Shown here one piece after another: positions 38,532 through 56,460 of a stretch of DNA of 58,446 nt (positions within the stretch are counted from its first letter, which is position 1; each line of letters begins with the position of its first letter). The stretch covers positions 1 to 58,446 of the forward strand of contig WJIJ01000086.1 of the NCBI GenBank assembly GCA_014730345.1, read 5' to 3'. Position numbers and translations under genes: made by a program. This stretch comes from Candidatus Zixiibacteriota bacterium. Its GTDB lineage: Bacteria; Zixibacteria; MSB-5A5; UM-FILTER-46-8. The notes beneath the pieces were generated by a model. The model saw nothing but the letters and a program-made list of their open reading frames with translations, made no database searches and was not told the origin of the DNA.

Positions 38532-38622
38532 AGGGATCCTTTATCGAGTGGTTACGGATTACAATAGTTTTGTTTCCAGTCTAACCTCTATCCTTGATAT
38601 CGACAATTGCCCCCGATTTATA

Positions 38623-38651
38623 AAGCCCATCCGGCAGAATCGGATGGGCTT
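38623..38651 (-). terminator. Terminator of the TonB receptor gene
   Basis: aagcccatccg-gcagaat-cggatgggctt, 11-bp perfect stem 28 nt past the stop. Confidence 0.75.
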
Positions 38652-38679
38652 CAGTGATTTACGGAGAGGTAAGATGGAA

Positions 38680-41114: not shown

Positions 41115-42068
41115 ATGAGTTCCAAACCCCGCGTATCGATCGGTTTGCCAGTTTATAATGGAGCAGCGTATCTCAGAGAAACAATTGAGTCGATTTTAAA
41201 TCAGACCTATACCGATTTCGAGCTGGTTATATCCAATAATGCTTCAACTGATGAAACTGACTCAATATGCCGGGAATATGCCTTTGGCGATAACCGCATA
41301 CGTTACTACAGCTATGGCAAAAATAGCGGCGCGGCATGGAATTACAACAATGTTTTCTACCTGTCAAGGGGAAAGTATTTTAAATGGGGGGCCCACGATG
41401 ATATATGCGCCCCGGAAAATATCGAACAATGCGTAAAAGCGCTCGATGAGAATCCCCAGGCAGTGTTGTCTTATCCCAAAAGCGATCTTATCGATGAACA
41501 TGGGCTTGAGATAGAGGTCGGGAAAGAGGATCTTTACTTGAGTTCCTCGGATATACGGGACAGGTTTGCGAAATGCCTGGATCCTATGCCCCTGTATCAT
41601 AATCCGGTTTTCGGTTTGACGCGCCGTGAAGTTTTGGCTAAAACAAGGCTTATTGAACCATATTTGGCATCGGACAGGTGCTTGATGGCTGAACTAAGCC
41701 TGCATGGAACCTTTCATGAAATTCCAGAGGTGCTGTTTTATCGGCGCAAAAGACCGGGAAATATCGGAACCTCTCCCGAGGATCTCGAATTTTACAATCC
41801 CAGCCTTAAGGGCAAAATCGTCTTTCCCGAATGGCGGGTTTTTTTAGAACACATGAAATCGGTCTGGAAAACCCGGATTCCTCAAGGCTCAAAAATTTTA
41901 TTATGGTGGGACGTTATCAAGTGGGCGTTGCGTAAACGTAAAATAATGTTATGGCAGATTAAACTGGCAGTAAAAACCTTTTACTATAAGCAATTTTCGT
42001 CTGGCGGAGTCCGTCGAAGCGCCGGTAGCAAGTACATGGTTGACGAATTAAAAAGGCAGAAATCATGA
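41115..42068 (+). CDS. GT2 family glycosyltransferase
   Basis: VSIGLPVYNG, ISNNASTD, NSGAAWNYN, FKWGAHDD. Confidence 0.9.
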   Translation: MSSKPRVSIGLPVYNGAAYLRETIESILNQTYTDFELVISNNASTDETDSICREYAFGDNRIRYYSYGKNSGAAWNYNNVFYLSRGKYFKWGAHDDICAPENIEQCVKALDENPQAVLSYPKSDLIDEHGLEIEVGKEDLYLSSSDIRDRFAKCLDPMPLYHNPVFGLTRREVLAKTRLIEPYLASDRCLMAELSLHGTFHEIPEVLFYRRKRPGNIGTSPEDLEFYNPSLKGKIVFPEWRVFLEHMKSVWKTRIPQGSKILLWWDVIKWALRKRKIMLWQIKLAVKTFYYKQFSSGGVRRSAGSKYMVDELKRQKS

Positions 42069-42835
42069 AGGTAGCGATTTTGGCGGGGGGAGTGGGAACC
42101 CGCCTTGTAGAAGAAACAGAGATTAAACCCAAGCCCATGGTTGAAATCGGCGGTAAACCTATTCTGTGGCATATAATGATGCATTACGCCCACTTTGGTT
42201 ACAAAGATTTTATTATCGCCCTGGGCTACAAAGGGCATGTGATAAAAAAGTATATGGTCGATTATTGTTCATTGAATTCAAACCTTACCGTTAACCTTTC
42301 AAGCGGCGAGGTAACTATACATAACGGTTCTAAGCAGGATTGGAATGTTGAGCTGATAGATACTGGCATGCCCACCCTGACCGGCGGGAGGATAAAACGC
42401 CTCAAGCCCTATATAGGTGATGAAACCTTCATGCTTACCTGGGGCGATGGAGTTTCCGATGTAGATCTGGATAAACTCCTCCAGTTCCACCGTTCGCATG
42501 GAAAACTGGCTACCCTGACCGCCGTACGCCCCCCGGCCCGTTTCGGACACCTCGAATTCGAAGGGGAAAAGGTGGTGCAGTTCTCCGAGAAACCGCAGAC
42601 CGCGGAAGGATGGATAAACGGGGCTTTCTTTGTTCTTGAACCGGGCATATTCAACTATATCGACGGGGACATGACCCAATGGGAGAAGGAACCGCTGGAG
42701 AGGTTAGCCGCCGATGGGCAGTTGATGGCATATCGCCACGGCTCCTTCTGGCAATGCATGGATACTTTGAGAGATAAAAAGCTGTTGCAGGATTTATGGG
42801 ATAATGGCAACCCACCCTGGAAATTATGGAGATAA
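42065..42835 (+). CDS. rfbF: Glucose-1-phosphate cytidylyltransferase
   Basis: ILAGGVGTRL.EET..KPKPMVEIGGKPILWHIM, TGGRIKR, F.EKP, WINGAFF, FWQCMDTLRDK. Confidence 0.93.
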   Translation: MKVAILAGGVGTRLVEETEIKPKPMVEIGGKPILWHIMMHYAHFGYKDFIIALGYKGHVIKKYMVDYCSLNSNLTVNLSSGEVTIHNGSKQDWNVELIDTGMPTLTGGRIKRLKPYIGDETFMLTWGDGVSDVDLDKLLQFHRSHGKLATLTAVRPPARFGHLEFEGEKVVQFSEKPQTAEGWINGAFFVLEPGIFNYIDGDMTQWEKEPLERLAADGQLMAYRHGSFWQCMDTLRDKKLLQDLWDNGNPPWKLWR

Positions 42836-42840
42836 ATAGA

Positions 42841-43881
42841 ATGAAAGTACTTGTTACCGGCAATAAAGGATATATTGGAGTTGTCCTTGTACCCATGTTA
42901 GAGGACGCGGGTCATGAGGTCATCGGCCTCGATTCCGATTTATACAACACCTGCACCTTTGGCGAATACGAAGATAAAACTACTACAATTATCAAGGATA
43001 TCAGGGATGTTACCTTGGCTGACCTCGAAGGTTTTGACGCCGTAATGCATCTCGCTGGTCTGTCAAACGATCCCCTTGGCGACCTTAATCCTGAGTTAAC
43101 CATGGAAATCAATTACCGGGCATCGGTAAGGCTCGCTGAATTAGCCAAACAGGCGGGAGTTCGCAGGTATATATTTTCCTCATCATGCAGTAACTACGGC
43201 GCCGCCGGAGACGATTATATCGATGAATCGGCGGATTTCAACCCGGTTACTCCTTACGGCAAATCCAAAGTTCTCGTGGAGCAGGAAGTGGCCAGGCTGG
43301 CCGATGATAGTTTCTCGCCTACGTTCCTGCGTAATGCCACCGCTTATGGTTTTTCGCCAAGATTGCGGTTCGATCTTGTTCTCAACAACCTGACCGCGTG
43401 GGCGTTCACCACAGGGGAGGTGCACCTTAAAAGCGATGGAACACCATGGAGGCCGATTGTGCATATAGAGGACATCTCCCTGGCATTTCTGGCGGTTCTG
43501 CATGCCCCCATCGGCAAGATCCACAACGAGGCTTTTAATGTGGGCGCTACTGAAGAGAATTACCAGATAAGAGACCTGGCCCAAATCGTTAAGGAAACCG
43601 TACCCGGATGCGAAATCGGTTTTGCTGACAACGCGGGCCCGGATAAACGCAATTACCGGGTCAACTGCGATAAGATAGTTAAGACTCTCCCGGAATACAA
43701 GCCGAGGTGGAATGCGAGCCGGGGAGCGTTGGAGCTTTACAAGGTGTACAAAAGGGTGGGATTGGAACTCGATGAATTTGAGGGTCCCCGCTACCGCCGT
43801 ATTGACCATATTAAAAACCTGCTCAAAACCGGCGCGCTGGAGGAATCCCTGCGCTGGAATGAAAAAAGTAAAGTAGCGTAA
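42841..43881 (+). CDS. NAD-dependent epimerase/dehydratase (extended SDR)
   Basis: [42 protein letters not shown]. Start moved to ATG 42841. Confidence 0.9.
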
Positions 43882-43897
43882 TAAGGCTGGGGAAGTG

Positions 43898-45127
43898 ATG
43901 GCGCAAAATCATCCTGTGTGCCGGTTGTGCGGCAACAGCGAACTTAAACCTGTAATATCTTTCGGGAGAACTCCGCTTGCCGATGACCTCCGCACACATG
44001 AACAACTATATGAACCGGAGATAACTGAAATCCTGGAACTTGTCTACTGCCCGGAATGTACCCTGGTGCAGATAACCAGGTCGGTGGACCCGGAAATATT
44101 ATTCTGCGATGACTATCCCTATTATTCATCGGTTTCACAATCTTTACTTAAGCATTTCGGGGCCAGCGCTGAACATCTTATTGAATCCCGTAGCCTTGGT
44201 GGAGAAAGCCTGGTGATTGAAGCGGCGAGCAATGACGGATACATGCTTAAAAATTTCAAGGAGAAGGGCATTGGCGTTCTTGGGATAGACCCTGCCGATG
44301 GACCGGCGAAGGTCGCCAATGACAACGGTATTCCCACTATGAATACTTTCTTCAATATAGATTTGGCCAAGCGGCTGAAAAGCGAAGGTAAGTCCGCCGA
44401 TGTTTTCCTGGCAAATAATGTTCTCGCCCACGTGCCCGATCTAAATGGCTTCGTGGAGGGAATACAGGTGTTGCTGAAAGAAAATGGAGTCGCGGTGATT
44501 GAATGCCCGTACCTGATAGACTTAATTGAAAATACCGAATTCGATACGATATACCATCAACACCTCTGTTATTTCTCCATAACCGCCCTTGACATTCTCT
44601 TCAGGAATCATTCGCTTTATCTTAATGAGGTAATCAGGACGAGTATCCATGGCGGTTCGTTGCGCCTGTTCGTGGAAAAGAAGGAAAACCAGGGTGATAC
44701 GCTGAAGGAATTACTGGAGAATGAATCCCGGTTGGGGCTCGATGAGAGTAGATACTACCGCGATTTCAGCGAAAGGGTGGAGAATATTAAAAAACGCGTT
44801 CTGGACATTCTATGGGATTTGAAAGCTCAGGGCAGAAGCATCGTGGGCTACGGCGCGGCGGCCAAGGCGGCTACTTTTCTCAGCTATTTAGGTTTGGACA
44901 AGCGTTACCTTGACTACGTCGCTGATTTGAATAAACACAAACATGGCCGATTCATGGGCGTTAACCACCTGCCGGTCGTACCGCCGGAGAAATTGCTGGA
45001 AACGAAACCTGATTATGTTTTGATACTGGCATGGAATTTCGCCGAGGAGATAATGGAACAACAGATAGAATATTCCCGGCGGGGCGGTAAATTTATAATC
45101 CCCATTCCCGAACCAAAAATCGTCTAA
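43898..45127 (+). CDS. NDP-sugar C-methyltransferase family, class I SAM-dependent (copy 1)
   Basis: CRLCG...CPECTLVQ zinc site, [32 protein letters not shown]. Confidence 0.9.
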
Positions 45128-45133
45128 GTAATT

Positions 45134-46318
45134 ATGACTGCAAGAAGAAATGACTGTCCCGGTTGCGGGAGTATGAACATCGAGCCATTCTATGAGGTTC
45201 TAAATGTTCCTGTGCACAGTTGCCTGATGATGTCCACTATCGAGGAAGCGGAGAAGTTCCCCCGAGGTGATGTAGTCCTCGGTTTTTGCGGCAACTGCGG
45301 TTTTATTTTCAATACCGCGTTTGATTCATCGCACTCCAGTTACTCGGCGATATACGAGGACCAGCAATCCTACTCTCCGACATTCAACGCTTTCGCCAAA
45401 AGACTGGCGAGGGATTTGATTAACAAATTCGAATTAAGGAATAAGAACCTGGTGGAGATAGGATGCGGTAAGGGTGATTTCCTGGCGCTGATGTGCGAAC
45501 TTGGTGACAATAGCGGAGTGGGAATTGATCCCACCTGTGTTAAAGAGCGAATCAGAGGGGCGGTCGCTAACCGTATTACTGTAATCGATGATTACTACTC
45601 CGAGAAATATTCCGGATACACCGGTGATTTTGTTATGTGCCGGCATACTCTCGAACATATACCCGAAACCTCCGAATTCCTTTCTACCCTGCGGAAGGGA
45701 ATAGGCGGCAAACTGGAGACCAATGTTTTCTTCGAGATACCGGAGACCGTCCGGGTTCTCCGCGAGGCGGCGTTCTGGGATATTTATTACGAGCACTGTT
45801 CCTATTTCACTCCCGGTTCCCTGGGAAGGCTATTCCGGTATTGCGGTTTTGATGTCGAGGAGATATACCTCGATTATAACGGTCAGTATCTTCTACTCGA
45901 CGCCCGGCCCGCGCCGGTTAAGCCCGAACGTGAACATCCCCTTGAGGAAAGTATAGAAAGCTTGAAAAAGGATGTGGATAGTTTTCGGGCAAGGATAAAG
46001 GGTGTCCTGGAATCATGGCGTTTAAAATTCGATGGTTACCGCGGGAATAGCAAAAAAGTGGCAATCTGGGGTTCCGGTTCCAAGTGCGTTTCATTTTTAA
46101 CCACCCTGGGCATCGAGGATATCGATTTGAGGGTAGTGGATATTAATCCAAACCGTCATGGAAAATACATCCCCGGAGCCGCCATGCAGGTGTTTTCTCC
46201 GGAATCACTAAGGGATTTTAACCCGGATACAGTGATGGTGATGAACCCTGTATATGAAGATGAAATCCGGGGAATGCTGGCAGATATGAAGCTAAAACCT
46301 GAGGTCTATTCGGTTTAA
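45134..46318 (+). CDS. NDP-sugar C-methyltransferase-like protein (copy 2)
   Basis: CPGC...CGNCG, EIGCGKG, RHTLEH, WDIYYEH, WGSGSK. Confidence 0.85.
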   Translation: MTARRNDCPGCGSMNIEPFYEVLNVPVHSCLMMSTIEEAEKFPRGDVVLGFCGNCGFIFNTAFDSSHSSYSAIYEDQQSYSPTFNAFAKRLARDLINKFELRNKNLVEIGCGKGDFLALMCELGDNSGVGIDPTCVKERIRGAVANRITVIDDYYSEKYSGYTGDFVMCRHTLEHIPETSEFLSTLRKGIGGKLETNVFFEIPETVRVLREAAFWDIYYEHCSYFTPGSLGRLFRYCGFDVEEIYLDYNGQYLLLDARPAPVKPEREHPLEESIESLKKDVDSFRARIKGVLESWRLKFDGYRGNSKKVAIWGSGSKCVSFLTTLGIEDIDLRVVDINPNRHGKYIPGAAMQVFSPESLRDFNPDTVMVMNPVYEDEIRGMLADMKLKPEVYSV

Positions 46319-46323
46319 ATATT

Positions 46324-47478
46324 ATGGATTTAATTAATTGCCCGGTCTGTAAATCCACAGACCTTGAAAAAATATACGATGCCTGTTCAGCTCCGGTCTA
46401 TTGCAACTTACTCTGGGATGACCGCGAAAGCGCCGTAAACTGTCCCAAAGGTTCCATCCAACTCCAGTATTGCCGCAGGTGCGGCTATATTTTCAACTCT
46501 GATTTCGATACGGAACTGCTCGATTATGATGTTGAATATGAAAACTCCCTGCACTTCTCCCGAAAATTCGAAACCTATGCTCAATCCCTCGCCCAACGCC
46601 TGGTGGAGCATTATCGACTCTATGACAAAAAGATAATAGAAATCGGATGCGGCCGGGGAGATTTCCTGAAGCTGTTATGCAAACTGGGGGACAACCATGG
46701 TATCGGCTTTGACCCCAGTTACCACGAAGGAACCGTTGATAACGATGCCAGCGGCAACATAATAATAATCAAGGATTACTACGGGGGTAAATATTCATCA
46801 CTGGAACCCGACTTTATCCTTGCCCGGCAGACCGTTGAACATATCCCCGATCCGGTTAAATTCCTGAGGACTATATTGGCAACAACCGGCAACAAGACGA
46901 TTCCATTGTTTATCGAAGTACCAAACATGGTCTACACGCTAAAGAATATGTTCATCTGGGATATTATTTACGAGCATTACTCGTACTTTACTCCAATCTC
47001 CGTGAACGCCCTTTTAGCAATGAGCGGATATAACGCGAGCTTGATTTCCGATGAGTTCGGGGGGCAGTTTATGGGAGCGCACGCCATACCCGGGGAAGGC
47101 GAAATTATCGACGGTTCGATATTCGATAAGGAAGTCGACCGTTTTAAGTGTCGTTATCCTGAATGGATTAGTGAATGGAAAGCACAAGTAAAAAAAGATA
47201 TCAACGAGGGTAAAAACATCGTAGTTTGGGGCTCCGGCTCCAAAGGTGTAACATTTTTGAACATCCTGGGTATGGGTTCCGGTATTGAATACGCGGTCGA
47301 CATTAATCCCCGCAAAAACGGCAGATATATTGCCGGTACCGGTCAAAAAATAATCTCCCCTCAGCAACTTATTGATGTTAAACCAGATATAGTCCTGATT
47401 ATGAATCCATTGTACGAACAGGAAATACGTTCTACCCTCGCCAATCTAAAGATAGACCCGCAGGTAATGATAATTTAG
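46324..47478 (+). CDS. NDP-sugar C-methyltransferase-like protein (copy 3)
   Basis: CPVC...CRRCG, EIGCGRG, RQTVEH, WDIIYEH, WGSGSKG. Confidence 0.85.
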   Translation: MDLINCPVCKSTDLEKIYDACSAPVYCNLLWDDRESAVNCPKGSIQLQYCRRCGYIFNSDFDTELLDYDVEYENSLHFSRKFETYAQSLAQRLVEHYRLYDKKIIEIGCGRGDFLKLLCKLGDNHGIGFDPSYHEGTVDNDASGNIIIIKDYYGGKYSSLEPDFILARQTVEHIPDPVKFLRTILATTGNKTIPLFIEVPNMVYTLKNMFIWDIIYEHYSYFTPISVNALLAMSGYNASLISDEFGGQFMGAHAIPGEGEIIDGSIFDKEVDRFKCRYPEWISEWKAQVKKDINEGKNIVVWGSGSKGVTFLNILGMGSGIEYAVDINPRKNGRYIAGTGQKIISPQQLIDVKPDIVLIMNPLYEQEIRSTLANLKIDPQVMII

Positions 47479-47714: not shown

Positions 47715-49100
47715 ATGAGGAAAGGGTTGGTATTATTAATGGTGCTGTTAGTAAGCACCTGGTGGGTTTCAGCTTTCGCTGAAGAAAGCTACATGACCAT
47801 CGCGGAGTTGAAGGACAAGGTCGTCCGCCTTGAAAAGCAGTTGTCCAATTTGAATGCCGCTTATAACCGCGACATTCCCCGGCTCAGGGAAGCTTCGACT
47901 TCCAATACCAGTTCAAACAACACCGAGTTGACCCAACTGCGTCAGGATATGGACGCGCTTACTACTGAGATGATGCATTTGAGACAGAGTCTGACCCGGG
48001 AAACTACTCAAACGGGTTCCGACACCGAACGCCTGGCGAGTATCGAGCACAAGCTGGAAATGCTCCAGATGAGGTTGGATGCTTGGCGCCACCAGAGCGA
48101 AGAGTACGCCGATTTAACCGCTCCCAATGTAAGACCCCAGCAGATCGATAAATCCTCGATGTCAATCGAGGAGTTTGAGATTACCGGGTTCGTGGATGGT
48201 AGCTACGCGGTTGACGTACCAACCGGCGAAAACACCTTCGGATTCGATCAGGCGGAAGTAAATATTATCAAAACTATCGGCGAGGTCGGAGAAGTACGCG
48301 CTGATGTTGAGTGGGTCAGTGACGGCCAGGGTGATTTTGAACTCAGCGCTGAACAGGGTTACGTGGTCTTCAGCCCGACCTTCCTTAGCCCGGTCAATTT
48401 CACCTTCGGTAAATATAACGCTCCTATCGGCTTCGAGCTTTTAGACGCTCCCGATATGTACCAGTATTCCCACGCGCTGGTGTTTAATTACGGCTTGCCC
48501 ACTAATGTCAGCGGCGCCATGATTTCTGCTGAATTCGCCGAACATTTTGACGCAAGGCTTTATGTTTGTAACGGTTGGGACCAGAACGTCGATGTAAACA
48601 CCGGAAAAACCGTAGGCACCCGTTTCGGTTATTCCAATGAAAACGCGCTCAATATTACCACCGGGTTGTCGTTTCTGCACGGGGCCGAAACCGCCATCGA
48701 AGGCGACTTCACCACCGTCGTGGACTGGGATTTATCACTCAATCCTACCCAGTGGTGGACTCTCGGCGCTGAGGTTAACTACGGCAGGAGCGAAATCAGC
48801 GATACCAACCTGAACTGGTTCGGTTTTCTGCTTATGAACCATTGGGACTATAATAGTTGGGGCGGCATTACCGTAAGGTATGATTATTTCAATGATTCCG
48901 ACGCGTATCGTATCACAACCGGCGTAGCCCAGACCCGGCAGGCGGTTGCATTCGCTCCCACCTTTGCCCTCGGTAAGGGTATGGGCGCCTTATTTGAAAT
49001 CCGCGCCGATATCAGCGACAAGGAAGTATTCACCAATAGCGATGGTGAACCCTCCAAGTCCACTATTAACTTCGCCTACGAAATGACTTATACATTCTAA
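47715..49100 (+). CDS. Outer-membrane beta-barrel porin (OmpL-like/BBP2-type) with N-terminal coiled coil
   Basis: Signal peptide; ~120-aa heptad region; ITGFVDGSY, FGKYNAPIGFE, NGWD; terminal YEMTYTF; ggagg RBS. Confidence 0.82.
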   Translation: MRKGLVLLMVLLVSTWWVSAFAEESYMTIAELKDKVVRLEKQLSNLNAAYNRDIPRLREASTSNTSSNNTELTQLRQDMDALTTEMMHLRQSLTRETTQTGSDTERLASIEHKLEMLQMRLDAWRHQSEEYADLTAPNVRPQQIDKSSMSIEEFEITGFVDGSYAVDVPTGENTFGFDQAEVNIIKTIGEVGEVRADVEWVSDGQGDFELSAEQGYVVFSPTFLSPVNFTFGKYNAPIGFELLDAPDMYQYSHALVFNYGLPTNVSGAMISAEFAEHFDARLYVCNGWDQNVDVNTGKTVGTRFGYSNENALNITTGLSFLHGAETAIEGDFTTVVDWDLSLNPTQWWTLGAEVNYGRSEISDTNLNWFGFLLMNHWDYNSWGGITVRYDYFNDSDAYRITTGVAQTRQAVAFAPTFALGKGMGALFEIRADISDKEVFTNSDGEPSKSTINFAYEMTYTF

Positions 49101-49174: not shown

Positions 49175-50446
49175 TTAAGTTAAACCGTGCGGGAATTCGA
49201 GCGGTTTGACCGGGATAGTTACGCTTCTCTTACCAGTATCATCCGGTGGATTGATGGTTAATTTTCCCGCGCTCTCACCCATGATGTAAATTTCGATTTT
49301 CTCCGGTTCGCCGGCATAGAAAGTGATTCCTTCATAATTCGGCGGCACATCTACAGGTCCGTTAGTGCCTTTTATATTAATGCGATAAGCGCCCTCTGAA
49401 ACTTTCTCGCTATCCCAAACTAAATACTTGTTGGTATAATGGTAATTGAGCATACGGGAAGTGGTGGTTATCCAGATTCTTTCGGATTCCTGCCGGGATT
49501 TTAGCTCGCGGAAACGTTTGCAGAGTTCAGTATCGAAAATTTGCCCATCCTCCCGTTCAAGCGGTTGACCGAAATGGGTGTAAATTATCATGGTTCCCCG
49601 GTTTCTTTCGAGTTTGTCGAGGACTTCAGTTGAGAGTTGTTTTTTCAGGATATCGCGGTTAGGCGGGAAATTAATATTGCCGTAACTGTAGCAGTAACGG
49701 GTAAATTCCATCAATAACTGTCTATCCCGAAGACGGCGCGGGCGCATCAACTCATTTCCGAAAACTTTGCGGATTTTATGTTTTCTACCGATAAGGTATT
49801 TTATCAGACTTTTAACCAGGTGCTCGGTCTTAAATTTAAAATAATCCATATCCCCGAGGTTTAAACTCCTGTCCTGTCCGACCACCGCGGTTAAATCGCA
49901 TCCCCAGTAAAAATAAATGCCAAGGTTTTCGATGGTAAGGTCGCTATGATATGCTTCACTTTCAGGGTCATCCCCATACGCCTCAATAAGCTGGCACAAC
50001 AGATTTTGCCGGTTATAATTATCGCCATGGTTTATATAGGTATCGAATTTAATGCCGTCTTTTGCCAGCCGGTCCAGTGCCGTTTCGGCGAGTTTTCGTT
50101 CGAAATATGCGGGGTCTGGAGGATTTTCCCATCTGGAAAAATTCCCGTAGGAATGGAAGCAGTCGATATATCCCGCTTCGATAAGCTCTTTGAGGATTGG
50201 GGCGTGCGGCGATTTCCCGGCAGATAAACCATTGAAATACGTTACTTCATAGGGGAGAAGCGAATAGCACCAGAACGTTTCCCCTATTTCCAGCCCGAGC
50301 CCCTCTCCCATCGGTGTGGATTGAGTTGAATTAAGATACTGCCTTATCGCAAGGAAATCATCGATTCTCAGATTATCGAGATCATTGGCAATGGTTAAGG
50401 CCGCCCTGTAACGGTATGGGAATTTCCTTAGACTTATCAGGTTCAT
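49175..50446 (-). CDS. Hypothetical protein in the polysaccharide operon, possibly deacetylase-like (beta/alpha) barrel
   Basis: 423-aa ORF translationally coupled to wzx (ATGA); IANDLD, CFHSYG, YINHG, IYTHFG suggest metal-binding Asp/His residues. Confidence 0.6.
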   Translation of the reverse strand: MNLISLRKFPYRYRAALTIANDLDNLRIDDFLAIRQYLNSTQSTPMGEGLGLEIGETFWCYSLLPYEVTYFNGLSAGKSPHAPILKELIEAGYIDCFHSYGNFSRWENPPDPAYFERKLAETALDRLAKDGIKFDTYINHGDNYNRQNLLCQLIEAYGDDPESEAYHSDLTIENLGIYFYWGCDLTAVVGQDRSLNLGDMDYFKFKTEHLVKSLIKYLIGRKHKIRKVFGNELMRPRRLRDRQLLMEFTRYCYSYGNINFPPNRDILKKQLSTEVLDKLERNRGTMIIYTHFGQPLEREDGQIFDTELCKRFRELKSRQESERIWITTTSRMLNYHYTNKYLVWDSEKVSEGAYRINIKGTNGPVDVPPNYEGITFYAGEPEKIEIYIMGESAGKLTINPPDDTGKRSVTIPVKPLEFPHGLT

Positions 50447-51894
50447 TTGTCCTTTCCGGCGGTTTCAATTCCTACCAAACCCTTTATGATAGCTGTTTCC
50501 CGGCTGTCGAAAGTTCTGGTCGCGAAAAGAGCGGCAATGTAGATCACTCCTCCGGTTAATAGAGAGATAACAACCCCCACATAACTATTAATGTAATTAA
50601 TCGAGATTGCCATCAACGACGCCGCTATCAACGGTTTTATCAGCGCGCTTACTGCACGCGAAGATAGTCTAACGTTGATATGCAGTTTCACGAAATAGAC
50701 GATTAACTTCAATAGTTCCGCCGCGGCAATTGACAGCGCCGCTCCTATGTAAGAATAGATGGGGATTAAGATTAAATTCAGCACTATGATTAATATGACT
50801 CCGAACGTGTTTATCAACAATATGAATTTTTCCCTGCCCATGGCAATGAAAGAATGAGCCAGGATTGCATTATTGAACGAGAAGGTAAGGGATATACCCA
50901 GGAACATCAAAGGGATTCCGCTCTCCCGAAAACTCTCTCCAAAAATCAACACGCAGATTTGTTCAGGAAGCATTATAAATGCGACGGTAATCGGAAATCC
51001 AATGAGCGTCATAAATTTCAGTGCGTATCGGATCGTATTAGAGAATTCTTCGCCTGTGCCGCTTTCGGCGTAGTACCGGGTAATCGCCGGCAGGAAAGCG
51101 GATGTCAATGCCGCCGGGAAAAACATCAGCGTCTGTGGGAGTTTATTGGCCATTGAAAAAATGCCGGTATGATAATCCCCCATTATCAGGTTCAACATCA
51201 GGGTTCCGACATGATATGTTAACATAGAGACCATCGATAACAACATAAATGGCAATGCGATTGTGAGCATATTTGCGGAGCGGCTTACCTTGAAGGAAAA
51301 TGGACGTTTAATAAATACCTTTTTAACAATAAGGTAACCAATGATAAATATGATCAAGGCTGATAAAACCTGTGATAAGGAGAAACCTATCAAGCGCCAA
51401 CCAGTTATCAACACGAACAATCCGCCGGCGAAATTCAGTATCCTTAATGATATTCTTATATAAGCTTCGTATTCAGCTTTCTGGAATGCGCGGATAAATG
51501 AAGATAGCCAGCTTATGTAGGAGTAGACAAAAACGGTAGCCGATGCAATTATAACTACAATGCTTTTTAAACGCGTATAATCGAGGTTTAGTACCAGTAA
51601 TACCAGCAAGCCAATCAGGAAGAGAGTTATTACTGTTTTTAGAATAAAGGTTCGATTGAAATAATCTCCGGCGATATGGATATCCCGGCTGACATCCCGC
51701 ATGATCAACTTATCGAATCCGAAATTAATCACCTGGGCGCCGATCATGCCGATGGTTAATCCAAAACTGTAGATACCTATGTTGACGGGACCGAGATAAC
51801 GCCCTGCAACGATAAATACCGCGGCGCCGATGATACTTGCTGAGAGTTCGGTGAGAGTATAGATCCAGGAATTACGTACTATTGGAGGGAGCAT
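50443..51894 (-). CDS. wzx: Wzx polysaccharide flippase
   Basis: About 12-14 TM segments; GRYLGPVNIGIYSF, GIFSMANK, LILIPIYSYIGAA. Confidence 0.9.
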   Translation of the reverse strand: MLPPIVRNSWIYTLTELSASIIGAAVFIVAGRYLGPVNIGIYSFGLTIGMIGAQVINFGFDKLIMRDVSRDIHIAGDYFNRTFILKTVITLFLIGLLVLLVLNLDYTRLKSIVVIIASATVFVYSYISWLSSFIRAFQKAEYEAYIRISLRILNFAGGLFVLITGWRLIGFSLSQVLSALIIFIIGYLIVKKVFIKRPFSFKVSRSANMLTIALPFMLLSMVSMLTYHVGTLMLNLIMGDYHTGIFSMANKLPQTLMFFPAALTSAFLPAITRYYAESGTGEEFSNTIRYALKFMTLIGFPITVAFIMLPEQICVLIFGESFRESGIPLMFLGISLTFSFNNAILAHSFIAMGREKFILLINTFGVILIIVLNLILIPIYSYIGAALSIAAAELLKLIVYFVKLHINVRLSSRAVSALIKPLIAASLMAISINYINSYVGVVISLLTGGVIYIAALFATRTFDSRETAIIKGLVGIETAGKDK

Positions 51895-53410
51895 CTAAAA
51901 CGTTTTCCGGAGATATTTTTTCGAAATTCAGATGTATGGCATAGATAATACCCACGGGTATCCACAGGTACCATTGTTGAAATAAAGGAAAAATGGTATA
52001 TGTCAGCGCGATGATATTACTTAAAATTCCGGCGCTGAACCCAATCATTACATAATTCAGCGGGGGGGCATACCTGTTCATATACCTGAATCCGACATAC
52101 AATATGGATGAAAAGAATACTATAATCAATAATAATGCCGGGATGCCGTTTTCAGCACAATAATAAAGAAAAGTATTGTGTACTGTTCTGGAGCGTCTTA
52201 CAGGAAGTTGTTCGAGGGTATCATCATATTCCCTGAGCTTTAAAACATAATTCATCGGCCCTACGCCCAAAAAAGGCTTATCGATAATATAGTTCAGCGC
52301 GGCTTTGAATTGAGGAATCCTGCTGTAAGTGGGGCTCGTGTACGAAAAACTTGTGTTATATATCCTCCTTGAGAAAGGATTATCGGTTAGCAATATTGGA
52401 GGCGTAATAATAAAAAATAAAAGGGTGGAAATTAAAAGCGTTTTTAGAAGAACACGTTTATGGTAGGCGATGATAACAAAGCCGATTGCGAAACTTATGC
52501 CCAGGCCGACCCATCCTGAACGCGAAAGCGTATAGAGCACCGCTAATAGGCATAAAAAGGATATACCGAGTAGAACAGTCCGTTGATATAGTTTCATTTT
52601 ATGAAAGATACCGATGTACAGAAATACAGGTATAAAAGTATTTAAAAGTTTCGCGAGCTGGTTGGGATGACGAAAAGCGCCCTCAACGCGTCCTCCCTCC
52701 CATCCGGCGCCGGTAACACCGAAAGCTGTGATTTGCTTGGGGCTGATGACCGGAATATTAATGGTTCTTCCCAGTAATTTTTGACCCACTCCTAACAGCG
52801 ACTGAAGAGAGCATCCTATTCCAGCCCCGATTAATAACGCGTAGACATGGTTTTTGTCTCGTATATTGTTAATTAAATACCACAATATTAATAATACCTG
52901 GAGATATTGGATTTCAGCGATAAACGCGTTATTGACTAAAAAAGACTCGGTCCTGATAATTGAAATACTGGTCCATACAGTAAACAGAAAAAAAGATACA
53001 ATAGGCAAATTAAAGAGATGTCTGCGGGAGATCTGCCGAGAAACGCCTGACAGCGATTCTTTCAGCCATATAAGATAAAGAAGCGCCAGCGTTATATCCC
53101 GCAGGTCGAGGGAATATCCGCTCATCACAGTTTGGAACCTGATGATATCATCGTCTCGATAAATCCTCGCGTTAATAAATATCAGGGTGGAGAGAGTAAA
53201 CAGGGTTAAGAGCACGTACTTGGGATTTTTAATCTGGGAAAGGGTAATGAAAAAAACAATACTCAGAAAAATGCCCATAATCCATTTCAGGGGGAATGCT
53301 GATAATTTCGAGATAACAAATGTGCTGAAAAGTACTATTACAATAAATGTTAGAATCTGGGCGGGGTCATATTTATATCGAAGGGACGCGCTATTCTTTT
53401 GATTAAACAT
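51872..53410 (-). CDS. O-antigen ligase/Wzy polymerase family membrane protein
   Basis: Polytopic; RVEGAFRHPN, TLSRSGW, R...FKAA...I..KPFLGVG, HNTFL...AENGI. Confidence 0.88.
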   Translation of the reverse strand: MFNQKNSASLRYKYDPAQILTFIVIVLFSTFVISKLSAFPLKWIMGIFLSIVFFITLSQIKNPKYVLLTLFTLSTLIFINARIYRDDDIIRFQTVMSGYSLDLRDITLALLYLIWLKESLSGVSRQISRRHLFNLPIVSFFLFTVWTSISIIRTESFLVNNAFIAEIQYLQVLLILWYLINNIRDKNHVYALLIGAGIGCSLQSLLGVGQKLLGRTINIPVISPKQITAFGVTGAGWEGGRVEGAFRHPNQLAKLLNTFIPVFLYIGIFHKMKLYQRTVLLGISFLCLLAVLYTLSRSGWVGLGISFAIGFVIIAYHKRVLLKTLLISTLLFFIITPPILLTDNPFSRRIYNTSFSYTSPTYSRIPQFKAALNYIIDKPFLGVGPMNYVLKLREYDDTLEQLPVRRSRTVHNTFLYYCAENGIPALLLIIVFFSSILYVGFRYMNRYAPPLNYVMIGFSAGILSNIIALTYTIFPLFQQWYLWIPVGIIYAIHLNFEKISPENVLDAPSNST

Positions 53411-53444: not shown

Positions 53445-54956
53445 CTACACTTCTTTTATAGAACCAAGCGTTTTCAATCCCAGATAATGTTCCGAATCTT
53501 CCGGATTATTTATGGAATGGTCAAAGAACTCAAGTCCCAAAACCGTACCCAGGCCGATTAACGGAGCAATCAAAATAGCGATTATCAGGTTTAACCTGAT
53601 GTTTGGCGAAGATGACTTCGACGGAACATTGGCGTACTCGATTACCTTAACCATTCTCGATCTGCTGTCGCTGGCTTCCTCCACTAAAGCTTCTTCATAC
53701 TTCTCTTTGAGGTTTTTAAGCAGTTCCTTCTCCCTCTTCAAATTCTCTTCCATAGATTTATAAGTAATCTCCTTTTTGGGGAGTCCCGACATGGTAGCCC
53801 TGAGTTCCGCTATTGTAGACTCCAGCGCGTTTTCTTCAGCTATTAGTTTTTCCAAAGAAGCCGATTCCAACTCTATCCTTTTGAGAACCTGTCCACGTAT
53901 CTGCTTTTGATAATCATCTATTTGAGTTTCAGTTTCGATAACCAGGCGATTCTCATCGGTATATTTTTGCTTGAGGTCCGCGAGTTTCAATTCGAGCTGG
54001 ACCAACTCCCTGTTTAATTGCGAAATGAGGGGATCCTGGGCCAACTCCTTCGATGGAATCATCTGGTCAGGATTTTCTCGCATATAGTTTTTTATCCGCT
54101 CCAGCTTGTTCTGCTGACTGATTATTTCTTTTCTTACCTCGGTAAGGGCGTTGGTGTAGCTGTTAATGGTGAACAACATGCTCTTCTCTTGCTCATCGTA
54201 TGATAATAACTCTTCACTGCTCCTGAACCTCGAAAACTGCTCCTCCAGCACTTCAAGTTTTTGGGTCAATGTGTTGATCTGTTCAGCGTAAAACTCGCTT
54301 TTCCCTATGTTAATGTTTACTTCGAGGTGACGGTTCAAATATTCGTCGGTAACCGCGTTTACTATCTTGGCCGCCATCTGGGGATCATAGTCCTGGTATG
54401 AAATCGTGAATACCCTCGAATATGGAACAGGCTTGCATTTTATCTTCCCCTGAAGGCCGTTAACAGCCTTACGGAATTTCACCGCCTCGCCGCCGCCTCC
54501 TCCTGAATCTTCCAATTCGCCCTGTGAATCTTCATCCCCGCCTATCCATCCTCTTATAAGACCCGGGAGCGATAACAACTGTCTAAAAGGCCATCTGATA
54601 TAATATTTTATATAGTCCCTTATGGTTTTGTCTTCTTTAGTCCTGCTTTGTAGTTGGAAGAGGGAGACCACCTTCTCCATCACCGGCCAACTTGTAACAA
54701 TTGCTATTTCCGTGTTGATTCGTTCCTGCCCGAAAGGCATCGCGTCAGCTATAATCTCCCGCTGGTTGTCGAACAAATTTTCATTGTAGATAGTTGAACG
54801 GACATAAATCTGGGTAGATGCGCCATACATCGGAGTTTTCAGCATGGAAAAAATCAGGGTCAGTACTATAATTCCCAGCGTTATTCCTATTAGTGCCGAT
54901 TTATGCTTGAATACTATGTAAAGATAATCTCGTAATGTGTTTCTAAATGGATTCAT
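53445..54956 (-). CDS. Polysaccharide co-polymerase (GumC/Wzc-like, no fused kinase)
   Basis: TM1, P.Y.AST, long coiled coil, VIEYANVP...SSP motif, TM2, ends DHSINNPEDSEHYLGLKTLGSI. Confidence 0.9.
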   Translation of the reverse strand: MNPFRNTLRDYLYIVFKHKSALIGITLGIIVLTLIFSMLKTPMYGASTQIYVRSTIYNENLFDNQREIIADAMPFGQERINTEIAIVTSWPVMEKVVSLFQLQSRTKEDKTIRDYIKYYIRWPFRQLLSLPGLIRGWIGGDEDSQGELEDSGGGGGEAVKFRKAVNGLQGKIKCKPVPYSRVFTISYQDYDPQMAAKIVNAVTDEYLNRHLEVNINIGKSEFYAEQINTLTQKLEVLEEQFSRFRSSEELLSYDEQEKSMLFTINSYTNALTEVRKEIISQQNKLERIKNYMRENPDQMIPSKELAQDPLISQLNRELVQLELKLADLKQKYTDENRLVIETETQIDDYQKQIRGQVLKRIELESASLEKLIAEENALESTIAELRATMSGLPKKEITYKSMEENLKREKELLKNLKEKYEEALVEEASDSRSRMVKVIEYANVPSKSSSPNIRLNLIIAILIAPLIGLGTVLGLEFFDHSINNPEDSEHYLGLKTLGSIKEV

Positions 54957-54980
54957 GTCATTTATGAATTAAATTTTATG

Positions 54981-55664
54981 TTACAATCTTCTGTATACAT
55001 TGTCCGGGATTACATACTCCCGCCTGTTTAAAACGGTACCGAGTATATGCGCTCCCGATTGCTCCAATTGCCTCTGGGTCTCCTGGATTATCTCACGCCG
55101 CGTTCTGTGGGCGGCTATCACAATTATTGTACCGTCCACTACCGACGAGTACGTAACCGCGTCCGGGAACGCGGTTACCGCGGGACTGTCGATTATTACC
55201 CATTCGTAACCCGTGCCAATATCATCCAGCACCGGTTTTATAACCGCTTTATTCAGTACCCGGTTTAAATTAACCTGGAATCCGCCGGCGGGAATGAATG
55301 ATAAATTCTTTATCCCCGTGTTGTATATCGCTTCATTGGCCTGAGCGTTGCCGAAAAGCAGATCCGAAAAGCCGGTCTTGTTTTCCATTCCGAAAACTTT
55401 GTGAAGCCCCGGGTGCCGGAGATTGCCATCGATTAAAAGTATCCGGGAATCATTGTTCTCAGCTGTCGCCGCCGCCAGGTTCATTGCCCAGGTCGATGTG
55501 CCTTCAAAGCGTATCGAACTGGTTAAACATATTGAACGTATAGTGCGCTCGCCTTCCTGGTTGCGGATCTTGAGCTGTATCGATGAGAATATCTTCCTGT
55601 GATCTTCATCTCGGTACAGAATCAATGGCTCATTATAATCTATTTCATCGGTGATGCCCGGCAT
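54981..55664 (-). CDS. CpsD/CapB-family BY-kinase-like protein with degenerate Walker A
   Basis: TSS...EGTST (Lys replaced by Thr), LLIDGNLRHP, IIDSPAV, GTVLN. Confidence 0.88.
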   Translation of the reverse strand: MPGITDEIDYNEPLILYRDEDHRKIFSSIQLKIRNQEGERTIRSICLTSSIRFEGTSTWAMNLAAATAENNDSRILLIDGNLRHPGLHKVFGMENKTGFSDLLFGNAQANEAIYNTGIKNLSFIPAGGFQVNLNRVLNKAVIKPVLDDIGTGYEWVIIDSPAVTAFPDAVTYSSVVDGTIIVIAAHRTRREIIQETQRQLEQSGAHILGTVLNRREYVIPDNVYRRL

Positions 55665-55692: not shown

Positions 55693-56460
55693 TTAATCCC
55701 TGAACCGCATATAATAATCGTACCTGTCCTCGATTCTATACGCGTTGTACCCCTGAATATAAGAGTTAAATAACGGCGGGAATATATTAGTAAAGAACTG
55801 ATTTATAAATATGTTCAGCTTCCCGATAAATGTCTTCGGTACATAAACTATGTCATATCCCGATAAAACAATATTTTCGCTCAAATTCTTCCTGTCCAGC
55901 ACCCGTGACAGGTTTATCCTCTGCGCCGTCGGCCTGTCTAATCCATTGGAGTGAAAAACGATTACTGAGGACTGCTCGGCTATCAGGTTAAATCCTCCGG
56001 CCGATGCTATCGCCTGCAACGCCGTCAACCGGCCGTTCATCTCAATCGGACCCGGGCTTCTAACCTCCCCGAATACATACACGACCTCCCGCGCCGATTC
56101 ACGTACCTGAACAGTTATATCCGGATTTTTTAAAATCTCCGAGTATTTTTCGGTTACAATACTATCCACCTGGGTCGGCGTTAATCCAACTACCACGAAA
56201 TCGCCTAACCGCGGAAGAGTAATCCTGCCATCGGAACGCACCAGCAATTCCTCGTTCAACTCCGGGTCATAGAAAAACTTGATACCCAATACATCCCCAA
56301 AACCTATACGGTATTCCGGAAGAGCAGGGGTTACCCCGGGAACATAAATCGGTTTGGGATTTTTGGGCAGTCTAACGCCCTTCGATGGTTTGCCGCCACA
56401 CCCGATGTTTAAAAATATTGCTAATGAAATCAGAATCAGAGATAAAATTTTCCTGTACAT
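55693..56460 (-). CDS. wza: Polysaccharide export lipoprotein (OPX/Wza family)
   Basis: Lipobox NIG-C; YRIGFGDVL, VRSDGRITLP..G....GLT, VYVFGEVRSPG, GYDIVYVP. Confidence 0.9.
   Translation of the reverse strand: MYRKILSLILISLAIFLNIGCGGKPSKGVRLPKNPKPIYVPGVTPALPEYRIGFGDVLGIKFFYDPELNEELLVRSDGRITLPRLGDFVVVGLTPTQVDSIVTEKYSEILKNPDITVQVRESAREVVYVFGEVRSPGPIEMNGRLTALQAIASAGGFNLIAEQSSVIVFHSNGLDRPTAQRINLSRVLDRKNLSENIVLSGYDIVYVPKTFIGKLNIFINQFFTNIFPPLFNSYIQGYNAYRIEDRYDYYMRFRD

What the first reader, a model, noticed from the sequence alone, without database searches (positions are those of the whole stretch)
54981..55664. Stand-alone BY-kinase looks like a pseudokinase
Seen: Walker A reads TSSIRFEG-T-ST (ACA at 55499-55497 where Lys is expected), Walker A' is IDGNLR rather than DxDLR, and Walker B is DSPA. 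The C-terminus (REYVIPDNVYRRL) has two scattered Tyr and no tyrosine cluster, and the co-polymerase tail has none either. Known: BY-kinases need the Walker A Lys and autophosphorylate a Tyr cluster; a BY pseudokinase (EcpK) acts in Myxococcus EPS synthesis. Inference: three coordinated losses point to phosphorylation-independent, scaffold-type control of export in another phylum. No cognate phosphatase is in the locus.
Basis: partly seen in the sequence, partly recalled or inferred. Interest (0 to 1): 0.65.

Follow-up and report, generated by a model that had tools for sequence, protein, structure and literature searches.

The report
Lysine-less tyrosine pseudokinase beside polysaccharide co-polymerase
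This gene encodes a well-conserved but almost certainly catalytically dead copy of a bacterial tyrosine kinase that partners the neighbouring polysaccharide co-polymerase; this kind of "pseudokinase" is already described in other bacteria, so it is a clear but fairly ordinary new example from Zixibacteria.

Summary
ORF 54981-55664 (-) encodes a 227-aa protein with the BY-kinase fold. It has Thr56 (ACA) where the Walker A Lys belongs and Asn81 for the second Walker A' Asp. Its tail is short (YVIPDNVYRRL) and is not a tyrosine cluster. The Walker B Asp159 is intact, so that is two catalytic losses plus the lost cluster, not three motif losses.

This is not an error or a private mutation. A 97%-identical copy from an independent run keeps Thr56, with dN/dS 0.03. 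Three 52-55% orthologs in the same Zixibacteria family read G[TV][ST]T within the same operon: OPX, kinase-like gene, kinase-less PCP-2, Wzy, Wzx.

The protein belongs to a large multi-phylum subfamily. Its members lack the lysine, carry Asn81 and end in [YF]x[IV]PxxxY[RK]RL, and they nearly always sit beside OPX and PCP genes. The genome also carries a separate, fully canonical BY-kinase cluster.

Best reading: a non-phosphorylating cytoplasmic partner of the co-polymerase, as published for EcpK/EpsV, HfsB/HfsA and the PslE kinase-like domain. The subfamily keeps every other nucleotide-site residue, so it may still bind nucleotide.

Verdict: new member of a known kind, of modest interest.

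The parts
54981..55664 (-). Stand-alone BY-kinase-fold gene (227 aa), a lysine-less pseudokinase-type paralog
   Evidence: TIGR01007 132 bits. AlphaFold2 model pLDDT 91.5. Foldseek TM about 0.8 to CapAB, Wzc, Etk and VpsO.
55497..55499 (-). Codon ACA = Thr56 at the Walker A lysine position
   Evidence: Read directly. Aligns with CapB K55 / K55M and Wzc K540. Kept in the 97% relative L122. Orthologs have T or V here.
55422..55430 (-). Walker A' codons D79-G80-N81; the second Asp is replaced by Asn
   Evidence: Read directly. N is found in about 90% of the lysine-less subfamily, against D in 97% of canonical relatives.
55188..55190 (-). Walker B Asp159, retained
   Evidence: D in 168 of 172 relatives. 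Aligns with Wzc D642.
54984..55016 (-). C-terminal tail Y217-V-I-P-D-N-V-Y224-R-R-L, the subfamily signature [YF]x[IV]PxxxY[RK]RL-COOH
   Evidence: P220 and Y224 are invariant in 93 stand-alone members. The tail co-occurs with loss of the lysine in 120 of 130 tail-bearing proteins. The PslE tail region aligns to the tail profile.
53445..54956 (-). PCP-2 co-polymerase without a kinase domain (503 aa). Its cytoplasmic C-tail ...EFFDHSINNPEDSEHYLGLKTLGSIKEV is the presumed docking peptide.
   Evidence: Wzz and GNVR domains plus TIGR03007/TIGR01005 hits. The tail motif is conserved in partner PCPs of the subfamily. In the read-through fusion model the tail forms a helix plus a strand at pLDDT 71-86.
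55693..56460 (-). Short OPX export protein (255 aa; Poly_export plus one SLBB). It is the first gene of the operon.
   Evidence: PF02563, PF22461 and an NF041843 EpsY-like hit. It is adjacent in all orthologous loci.
51872..53410 (-). Wzy-type polymerase
   Evidence: PF04932. Its position is conserved in orthologous loci.
50443..51894 (-). Wzx-type flippase
   Evidence: PF01943 and NF041871. Its position is conserved.
49175..50446 (-). Conserved 423-aa protein of unknown family; last gene of the operon
   Evidence: No Pfam or NCBIfam hit. It follows Wzx in L040, L041/L042 and L123.

Best explanation
The gene encodes a catalytically inactive BY-kinase homolog, a BY pseudokinase. It is the cytoplasmic partner of the kinase-less PCP-2 co-polymerase encoded 24 bases downstream, within a Wzx/Wzy-dependent polysaccharide operon.

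Shown here:
- The protein has the kinase fold.
- It lacks the Walker A Lys, the second Walker A' Asp and the Tyr cluster.
- These states are conserved in orthologs and across a large multi-phylum subfamily.
- The gene is under strong purifying selection.
- Members of the subfamily sit beside OPX and PCP genes.

Inferred:
- The PCP's C-terminal helix-strand peptide docks on the kinase-like domain, as the CapA peptide docks on CapB.
- The kinase-like domains form the cytoplasmic ring under the PCP oligomer.
- The conserved tail (IPxxxYRRL) holds the assembly together or reaches the transmembrane base and the Wzy polymerase, as shown for the single-Tyr tail of PslE.
- Assembly therefore does not depend on a tyrosine phosphorylation/dephosphorylation cycle.

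All other nucleotide-site residues (E54, G55, S57, T58, D79, D159, N213) stay conserved, so the site probably still binds a nucleotide or another ligand without transferring phosphate.
For: Fold and family:
- TIGR01007 hit; AlphaFold2 pLDDT 91.5; Foldseek hits to CapAB, Wzc, Etk and VpsO.

Losses at the exact catalytic positions:
-.

Conservation:
- Orthologs P0002-4 / L010-12 all lack the Lys.
- L122, from an independent run, is 97.4% identical with 6 nonsynonymous against 46 synonymous changes. Its dN/dS of 0.032 is as low as OPX (0.022) and PCP (0.045).
- 128 of 172 top relatives lack the Lys, always replaced by a small residue. 107 combine no Lys, Asn81 and the tail.

Context:
- The gene order is identical in all four genomes of the Zixibacteria family.
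- OPX and PCP are adjacent in most loci from at least 10 phyla.

Independence from the canonical kinase:
- The genome has a separate complete OPX-PCP-canonical BYK cluster on C132 (GEGKST, DTDIRRP, YYYDYSYYNY).

PCP tail docking:
- The fusion model gives the PCP C-tail a helix plus a beta-strand at pLDDT 71-86.

Literature:
- EcpK/EpsV and HfsB/HfsA act as scaffolds; such pairs are said to be widespread (PMC12004946).
- The PslE lysine-less domain has a single-Tyr tail that is required and lies near the Wzy polymerase PslJ. A cross-linked PslE octamer is still functional (PMC13434223).
- K55M CapAB and K540M Wzc are kinase-dead yet bind ADP-Mg and form octamers (PMC3795738, PMC11986026).
Against: - There is no biochemical test. 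Inactivity is inferred from sequence only.
- Retention of the rest of the P-loop, D79, D159 and N213 is unlike EcpK, where all motifs are gone. It means some nucleotide-dependent activity cannot be excluded.
- Two subfamily-specific arginines (R189, R215) could in principle supply charge to the site.
- Docking of the PCP tail rests on one artificial read-through fusion model (pTM 0.50). No contact map was available, so the strand's pairing partner is inferred.
- The pseudokinase's own tail has low confidence in both models.
- Tail-to-core covariation is weak, with z at most 4.2.
- The branch separating the subfamily from canonical kinases has low support.
Confidence: 0.75

Rival explanations
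1. It is still an active kinase or ATPase. A relocated basic residue, for example the subfamily-specific R189 or R215, or an Arg of a neighbour's tail, replaces the Walker A lysine, and Y224 is a single autophosphorylation site.
For: - The P-loop Gly, Ser/Thr57, D79, D159 and N213 are all conserved in the lysine-less subfamily.
- R189 and R215 are 84-89% Arg in the subfamily and not basic in canonical kinases.
- Y224 is invariant.
- Tail-bearing members that keep the Lys mostly have Gly225 where lysine-less ones have Arg or Lys.
Against: - The Walker A Lys is essentially indispensable in P-loop NTPases. Engineered K55M and K540M BY-kinases are dead (PMC3795738, PMC11986026).
- The second Walker A' Asp is lost in parallel.
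- The Lys is replaced only by small neutral residues.
- The Lys/Gly225 pattern comes from few lineages, with 4 Fitch changes on 202 tips, so it is confounded by phylogeny.
- PslE, with the same loss, works when cross-linked and has no kinase site (PMC13434223).
Confidence: 0.07
2. It is inactive itself but is a substrate or regulatory target of the genome's canonical BY-kinase (contig C132). That kinase phosphorylates Y224 (or Y217) in trans, so the export machine is still under phosphotyrosine control.
For: - All four genomes of the family that carry the lysine-less gene also carry a canonical GEGKST / Tyr-cluster kinase.
- Two LMW-PTP genes exist elsewhere in the genome.
- Y224 is invariant.
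- Lys-retaining relatives have Tyr-richer versions of the same tail, such as YHIPSYIYRYI.
Against: - The canonical kinase has its own OPX and PCP neighbours.
- Neither a kinase nor a phosphatase gene is in the window operon.
- In M. xanthus, loss of the two active BY-kinases or of the phosphatase barely affects the EcpK-dependent polymer (PMC12004946).
- Almost all Zixibacteria have a canonical kinase anyway, so the co-occurrence is uninformative.
Confidence: 0.1
3. It is a sequencing or assembly error, or a decaying pseudogene.
For: Nothing beyond the unusual motif itself.
Against: - An independent run gives the same Thr56, with 46 synonymous against 6 nonsynonymous differences.
- The orthologs and more than 100 clusters at 50% identity share the state.
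- The frame is intact and has a Shine-Dalgarno-like AAAGAGG upstream.
- The model folds with pLDDT 91.5.
Confidence: 0.01

Closest known systems
PslE cytoplasmic tyrosine-kinase-like domain, Pseudomonas aeruginosa Psl pathway (PDB 9v75/9v6l; PMC13434223)
   Same: - The BY-kinase fold lacks the Walker A Lys and has no Tyr cluster.
- The short C-terminal tail has a single Tyr. The tail region aligns to the subfamily tail profile (NRRRFEVPSKV against NRRxYxIPxxx; E 4.5e-6).
- It works with a short OPX lacking the Wza-type C-terminal helix.
- The tail is required for function and lies at the membrane-cytoplasm interface near the Wzy polymerase.
   Different: - In PslE the domain is fused to the co-polymerase; here it is a separate gene upstream of the PCP.
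- The PslE Tyr (Y658) lies 10 residues after the Pro, not 4, so the IPxxxYRRL motif is not strictly shared.
- Only the C-terminal third of the PslE domain scored against the profile.
EcpK/EpsV of Myxococcus xanthus and HfsB/HfsA of Caulobacter crescentus: stand-alone BY pseudokinase plus kinase-less PCP-2 (PMC12004946)
   Same: - The architecture is split: a stand-alone kinase-fold protein without catalytic Lys or Tyr cluster, plus a PCP-2 whose C-terminal cytoplasmic peptide is the proposed docking site.
- The proposed scaffold role is independent of phosphorylation.
- The OPX is short and EpsY-like (NF041843 hit).
   Different: - In EcpK none of the Walker motifs is recognisable and the C-terminus is a Lys/Arg-rich helix without Tyr.
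- Here the P-loop glycine, Ser/Thr, both remaining Asp residues and the base-binding Asn are conserved, and the tail carries an invariant Tyr.
- I did not have the EcpK or HfsB sequences, so no direct alignment was made.
Canonical stand-alone BY-kinases with a PCP-2b modulator (CapB/CapA of S. aureus; also the window genome's own kinase on contig C132)
   Same: - The fold is the same (TM about 0.8), and so is the split architecture.
- The PCP tail junction motif ...LGLxxLGSI is the same.
- The engineered K55M form is a natural-looking analogue: it binds ADP-Mg, forms an octamer and is kinase-dead.
   Different: The Lys is replaced by Thr, the second Walker A' Asp by Asn, and the Tyr cluster by a single-Tyr motif. 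No phosphatase gene is in the locus.

Membership tests
Active BY-kinase (TIGR01007 eps_fam; CapB/Wzc type) | P-loop BY-kinase fold and family HMM match | tested here: met
   132 bits against a cut-off of 108. Foldseek TM about 0.8 to CapAB, Wzc and Etk.
Active BY-kinase (TIGR01007 eps_fam; CapB/Wzc type) | Walker A lysine (GK[ST]) | tested here: not met
   Thr56 (ACA) aligns with CapB K55 and Wzc K540.
Active BY-kinase (TIGR01007 eps_fam; CapB/Wzc type) | Walker A' DxD | tested here: not met
   D79-G-N81. N81 aligns with Wzc D564 and CapB D79.
Active BY-kinase (TIGR01007 eps_fam; CapB/Wzc type) | Walker B aspartate | tested here: met
   D159 aligns with Wzc D642.
Active BY-kinase (TIGR01007 eps_fam; CapB/Wzc type) | C-terminal tyrosine cluster | tested here: not met
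   The tail YVIPDNVYRRL has two Tyr residues seven positions apart. Canonical Zixibacteria relatives have 5-9 Tyr.
Active BY-kinase (TIGR01007 eps_fam; CapB/Wzc type) | Autophosphorylation on tyrosine | not testable with these tools
   Needs a biochemical assay.
BY pseudokinase / kinase-less PCP-2 pair (EcpK/EpsV, HfsB/HfsA; PMC12004946) | BY-kinase fold lacking catalytic residues and the Tyr-rich tail, with this state conserved in orthologs | tested here: met
BY pseudokinase / kinase-less PCP-2 pair (EcpK/EpsV, HfsB/HfsA; PMC12004946) | Partner PCP-2 without a kinase domain in a Wzx/Wzy pathway | tested here: met
   A 503-aa Wzz/GNVR protein ends 31 residues after its second transmembrane helix. 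Wzy and Wzx follow in the same operon.
BY pseudokinase / kinase-less PCP-2 pair (EcpK/EpsV, HfsB/HfsA; PMC12004946) | Direct interaction with the cytoplasmic C-terminus of the PCP | tested here: inconclusive
   In the read-through fusion model the PCP tail forms a helix plus a strand at pLDDT 71-86, and the only cytoplasmic sheet is that of the kinase-like domain. However, pTM is 0.50 and no contact map was available.
BY pseudokinase / kinase-less PCP-2 pair (EcpK/EpsV, HfsB/HfsA; PMC12004946) | Required for polysaccharide synthesis | not testable with these tools
   The organism is uncultured and known only from a metagenome-assembled genome; this needs genetics.
XrtA-associated tyrosine autokinase (TIGR03018) / EpsG (TIGR03029) | Score above the curated cut-off | tested here: not met
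   120 bits against a cut-off of 231, and 99 against 314. None of 93 subfamily members comes close: the best E-value for TIGR03018 is 1.2e-42.

The most novel reading that the evidence does not exclude
The lysine-less, tail-bearing subfamily may be a 'frozen' kinase and not a dead scaffold. On this reading it still binds Mg-nucleotide through the conserved E54-G55-x-S/T-T, D79, D159 and N213 site but cannot transfer phosphate. The invariant C-terminal Tyr224, a remnant of the Tyr cluster, docks in trans into the neighbouring subunit's degenerate active site, and the tail's Arg-Arg possibly supplies the charge of the missing lysine. Nucleotide occupancy would then gate ring assembly and contact with the Wzy polymerase, in place of a phosphorylation cycle. 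No paper searched defines this subfamily or its signature motif [YF]x[IV]PxxxY[RK]RL, and databases name all members 'tyrosine autokinase'.
Probability: 0.2. Interest if true: 0.6.

Novelty: new member of a known kind. Interest (0 to 1): 0.3.

Why it matters
The finding adds Zixibacteria to the lineages that run a Wzx/Wzy export machine with a non-phosphorylating kinase look-alike.

Its wider value is at the family level. A very large, multi-phylum group of proteins is annotated automatically as 'tyrosine autokinase' (TIGR01007), yet the group lacks the catalytic lysine and the target tyrosines. Instead it shares a precise C-terminal motif. This is useful for annotation, because these proteins should not be counted as tyrosine kinases. 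It also gives a well-defined and abundant sequence class in which to test how co-polymerases are controlled without a phosphorylation cycle.

The principle itself is already published for EcpK, HfsB and PslE.

Tried and rejected
- **dN/dS among the four 52-57% orthologs.** Synonymous sites are saturated (pS 0.76-0.9), so no ratio could be given. This was solved with the 97% relative L122.
- **The search for related loci with the 93-sequence alignment.** It failed because there was no conserved stretch. A 12-sequence alignment worked.
- **Fusion alignments A5, A6 and A7.** These were misaligned: distant PCPs were laid over the kinase part, or the tails were pulled into the PCP part. A8, anchored by a second natural same-frame read-through (L124), was used instead.
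- **Covariation between the tail and the core.** It gave only weak signals, with z at most 4.2, so no contact was claimed.
- **Mapping the Wzc 'tyrosine pocket' residue E675 onto E191 of the T-R-R-E motif.** The ungapped profile alignment puts E675 opposite I192, so the correspondence is uncertain by one residue and is not claimed.
- **Cuthbertson et al. 2009.** The paper is not held in the library. Its content is cited only as reported by PMC12004946.
- **Single-sequence search of the tail against PDB.** It did not find PslE; the profile search did.
- **Promoter/terminator scan and Rfam scan of the operon.** They gave nothing informative.
- **Foldseek on the fusion model.** It added nothing beyond the kinase-domain hits.
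- **XrtA/PEP-CTERM membership.** Considered and rejected, because the scores are far below the cut-offs.
- **An MshEN-type c-di-GMP motif, noted for EpsG in an earlier scan note.** It is not visible in the N-terminal 40 residues, by inspection only.

Full report
**1. Observation**

The ORF at 54981-55664 on the minus strand encodes 227 residues. It matches the generic BY-kinase model TIGR01007 above its cut-off (132 against 108 bits). It matches the XrtA-associated and EpsG models only far below theirs.

- Codon 56 is ACA (55499-55497), giving S-I-R-F-E-G-T56-S-T. In phmmer alignments, Thr56 lies opposite CapB Lys55, and opposite the Met of the K55M crystal form. In a profile alignment it lies opposite E. 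coli K-12 Wzc Lys540.
- Walker A' reads I-D79-G-N81-L-R. N81 lies opposite CapB Asp79 and Wzc Asp564.
- Walker B reads I-I-D159-S-P-A, with D159 opposite Wzc Asp642, so this motif's key residue is intact.
- The protein ends ...N-R-R-E-Y217-V-I-P-D-N-V-Y224-R-R-L.

The "three coordinated losses" are really two catalytic-residue losses plus replacement of the Tyr cluster.

**2. Not an error and not a private mutation**

Three orthologs at 52-55% identity read E-G-[TV]-[ST]-T, I-D-[AS]-N-L-R-H-P and Y-V-I-P-x-x-[IL]-Y. One of them is named candidate division Zixibacteria.

A search of 201 genomes of the phylum found this ortholog only in the four genomes of the window's own family. Every other hit examined in the phylum is canonical (GEGKST, DxDLRRP, 5-9 C-terminal Tyr). 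Each of the four genomes also has such a canonical kinase.

A 4.4-kb contig from an independent sequencing run (L122) carries OPX, the kinase-like gene and the PCP.

| Gene | Amino-acid identity | dN/dS |
|---|---|---|
| OPX | 97.6% | 0.022 |
| Kinase-like gene | 97.4% | 0.032 |
| PCP | 90.3% | 0.045 |

The kinase-like gene differs at 46 synonymous and 6 nonsynonymous sites, with dS 0.37, and keeps E-G-T-S-T. Among the more distant orthologs, synonymous sites are saturated. Even so, the protein is as conserved as its PCP partner and more conserved than Wzy and Wzx. The gene is under strong purifying selection.

**3. A large coherent subfamily**

phmmer against 1.8 billion cluster representatives gave 63,973 relatives. 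Together with the first search's hits, 172 proteins were examined.

- 128 lack the Walker A Lys. It is always replaced by a small residue (A, T, V, C or S).
- 126 have Asn at position 81.
- 130 end in [IV]PxxxY plus a few residues.
- The three features are tightly coupled. 107 have all three, while 29 of the 32 Lys/Asp81 proteins lack the tail; most of those end in a Tyr cluster.

In 93 stand-alone members, D79, G98, G127, P220 and Y224 are invariant. E54, G55, N81, P85, D159, T188, N213 and I219 are at least 90% conserved.

Compared with canonical relatives, the subfamily-specific residues are N81, R189, R215, an aromatic at position 166, and the tail. The shared residues are the P-loop E-G, D79, R83, P85, D159, T188, N213 and P220. 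P220 is the Pro that precedes the Tyr cluster in canonical kinases.

A tree was built on core columns only, excluding the tail.

- All 58 canonical proteins fall on one side and 140 tail-bearing or lysine-less ones on the other.
- Only four Lys/non-Lys changes are needed by parsimony on 202 tips.
- Four Lys-retaining proteins with Tyr-richer versions of the same tail (for example YHIPSYIYRYI) sit at the boundary.
- The separating branch is poorly supported.

The tail thus looks like a reduced Tyr cluster.

No NCBIfam model is specific to the group. All 93 members would be named "tyrosine autokinase" by TIGR01007.

**4. Context**

In the window, the minus strand carries six genes with 24-34-base gaps or short overlaps:

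1. OPX (255 aa, short, EpsY-like hit)
2. the kinase-like gene
3. PCP-2 without a kinase domain (503 aa)
4. Wzy
5. Wzx
6. a conserved 423-aa protein of unknown family

The first five genes have the same order in all four genomes of the family and the 423-aa gene follows Wzx in two of the three others; the metagenome contigs L122 and L123 hold parts of the same order.

A scan of species-representative genomes found the subfamily in many lineages: Desulfobacterota, Nitrospirota, Planctomycetota, Acidobacteriota, Nitrospinota, Gemmatimonadota, Eisenbacteria, Omnitrophota, Gammaproteobacteria, Binatia and others. It is nearly always next to OPX and PCP genes, and sometimes fused to the PCP.

The partner PCPs keep the cytoplasmic junction motif (E/D)[YF]xDH[ST]...LxLPVL[AG]S[IV]. 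The Zixibacteria PCPs end three residues after it with a hydrophobic residue.

The window genome also has a second, complete cluster on contig C132. It holds OPX, PCP, a TPR protein, a canonical kinase (GEGKST, DTDIRRP, DCAP, YYYDYSYYNY) and a sugar transferase. No LMW-PTP or PHP phosphatase domain is on the window contig; two LMW-PTP genes lie elsewhere.

**5. Structure**

The AlphaFold2 model of the protein is confident (pLDDT 91.5). Confidence is lower only in the last about 15 residues, which form a short helix at 221-226. Foldseek places it with CapAB, Wzc, Etk, VpsO and BceF at TM about 0.8.

The kinase-like ORF and the PCP ORF happen to be in the same frame, separated by two TAA codons. 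I therefore modelled the read-through product (TAA read as Gly) as a stand-in for the complex. The alignment was checked for correct placement of both halves.

- After its second transmembrane helix, the PCP forms a helix (PCP 485-492) and a four-residue beta-strand (PCP 496-499) at pLDDT 71-86. This is the same helix-strand arrangement as the CapA peptide that activates CapB.
- The only cytoplasmic sheet available for that strand is that of the kinase-like domain.
- New single-residue bridges appear at R189 and at the Ser of the PCP's DHS motif.
- This supports docking but does not prove it, because pTM is 0.50 and no contact map was returned.
- The pseudokinase's own tail is placed with low confidence. 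That is expected if it acts in trans or on a missing partner.

**6. Comparison with what is known**

The EcpK paper shows a stand-alone BY pseudokinase that binds the C-terminus of the kinase-less PCP-2 EpsV and is needed for EPS. It describes HfsB/HfsA as a second case. Citing Cuthbertson et al. 2009, it states that such pairs, and fused forms, are widespread in Gram-negative bacteria (PMC12004946).

The 2026 PslD-PslE study reports the following (PMC13434223):
- The PslE kinase-like domain lacks the catalytic Lys and the Tyr cluster.
- Its C-terminal tail has a single Tyr (Y658) and lies at the membrane-cytoplasm interface next to the neighbouring protomer's TMH2.
- The tail cross-links to the N-terminus of the Wzy polymerase PslJ, and it is required for Psl production.
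- Disulfide-locked PslE octamers remain functional.

A profile of the subfamily's last 52 residues finds PslE in the PDB (E 4.5e-6), aligning ...INRRRFEVPSKV with ...LNRRxYxIPxxx. The tails are therefore related, though PslE's Tyr is spaced differently.

Engineered K55M CapAB and K540M Wzc are kinase-dead. They still bind ADP-Mg and form octamers with the neighbour's tail Tyr in the active site (PMC3795738, PMC11986026).

The protein differs from EcpK in one respect. In EcpK no Walker motif is recognisable, whereas here everything except the Lys and the second Asp is conserved.

**7. Mechanism**

Most likely (0.75), the protein is a non-phosphorylating cytoplasmic module of a split PCP-2. It docks on the PCP's C-terminal helix-strand peptide and forms the cytoplasmic ring. 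It uses its conserved tail for inter-subunit or Wzy/TMH contacts, so that polymerisation and export do not depend on a kinase/phosphatase cycle.

Shown: the fold, the losses, the conservation, the selection and the genomic linkage.
Inferred: the docking, the ring, the tail's role and the lack of activity.

Rivals:
- Residual activity through a relocated basic residue (0.07).
- Trans-phosphorylation by the canonical kinase (0.10).
- Sequencing error or gene decay (refuted).

The conserved nucleotide-site residues leave open a non-hydrolysing, nucleotide-gated latch. This is the most novel reading not excluded (0.2).

**8. Verdict**

The kind of system is already described, including a structure of a lysine-less relative. 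Earlier notes of this scan had already met the same tail-bearing subfamily in other genomes. It is a new member of a known kind.

The family-level description (the signature tail, the retained nucleotide site, and systematic misannotation as "autokinase") is the most useful by-product.

Noticed in passing
own genome contig C132:8912-13418 (L001 covers part): A second, complete polysaccharide export cluster: OPX, PCP, a TPR protein, a fully canonical stand-alone BY-kinase (GEGKST, DTDIRRP, DCAP, tail YYYDYSYYNY) and a sugar transferase. A third OPX/PCP pair lies on C116.
   Followed up: partly
window 47715-49100 (+): A BBP2/OmpL-like beta-barrel porin gene (PF07642) sits just outside the operon, next to a short OPX that lacks a Wza-type C-terminal part. 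This recalls the composite OPX/beta-barrel translocon proposed for M. xanthus. No homolog was seen within the 18-kb windows around the three orthologous loci, so the link is doubtful. A paralog lies on C30.
   Followed up: partly
window 49175-50446 (-): A 423-aa ORF with no Pfam or NCBIfam match ends the operon. It is conserved after Wzx in L040, L041/L042 and L123.
   Followed up: no
window 41115-47478 (+): A divergently placed sugar-modification block: a GT2 glycosyltransferase, a nucleotidyltransferase, an epimerase/dehydratase and three tandem C-methyltransferase-type paralogs (PF08484). This suggests a methyl-branched or methylated sugar in the polymer.
   Followed up: no
window 54957-54983 (-): The kinase-like ORF and the PCP ORF are in the same reading frame, separated only by two TAA codons and seven sense codons. 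The same is true in one ortholog (L124) but not in the others, so it is probably chance.
   Followed up: yes
loci L063, L073, L074, L076, L083, L100, L102, L108: A sub-clade keeps the Walker A Lys and the tail (YYIPxxLYGKI) but has degenerate Walker A' (for example LDANFHGP, VDFNGNSP) and Walker B (IVDSCS, IFDGPS). This would be a different route to a probably inactive site. Here the gene precedes OPX and PCP.
   Followed up: partly
loci L072, L077, L079, L082, L094, L098, L104-L106, L111-L116, L119, L120 (Bacillota): Bacillus-group BY-kinase homologs have GKS/T but Asn in Walker A' (IDGNLRNP). They end a few residues after the LN motif, with no Tyr tail at all.
   Followed up: no
window 33909-40527 (-): Upstream neighbours include an MCP chemoreceptor, a multi-PAS LuxR-type regulator (793 aa) and a TonB-dependent receptor. 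No link to the operon was examined.
   Followed up: no
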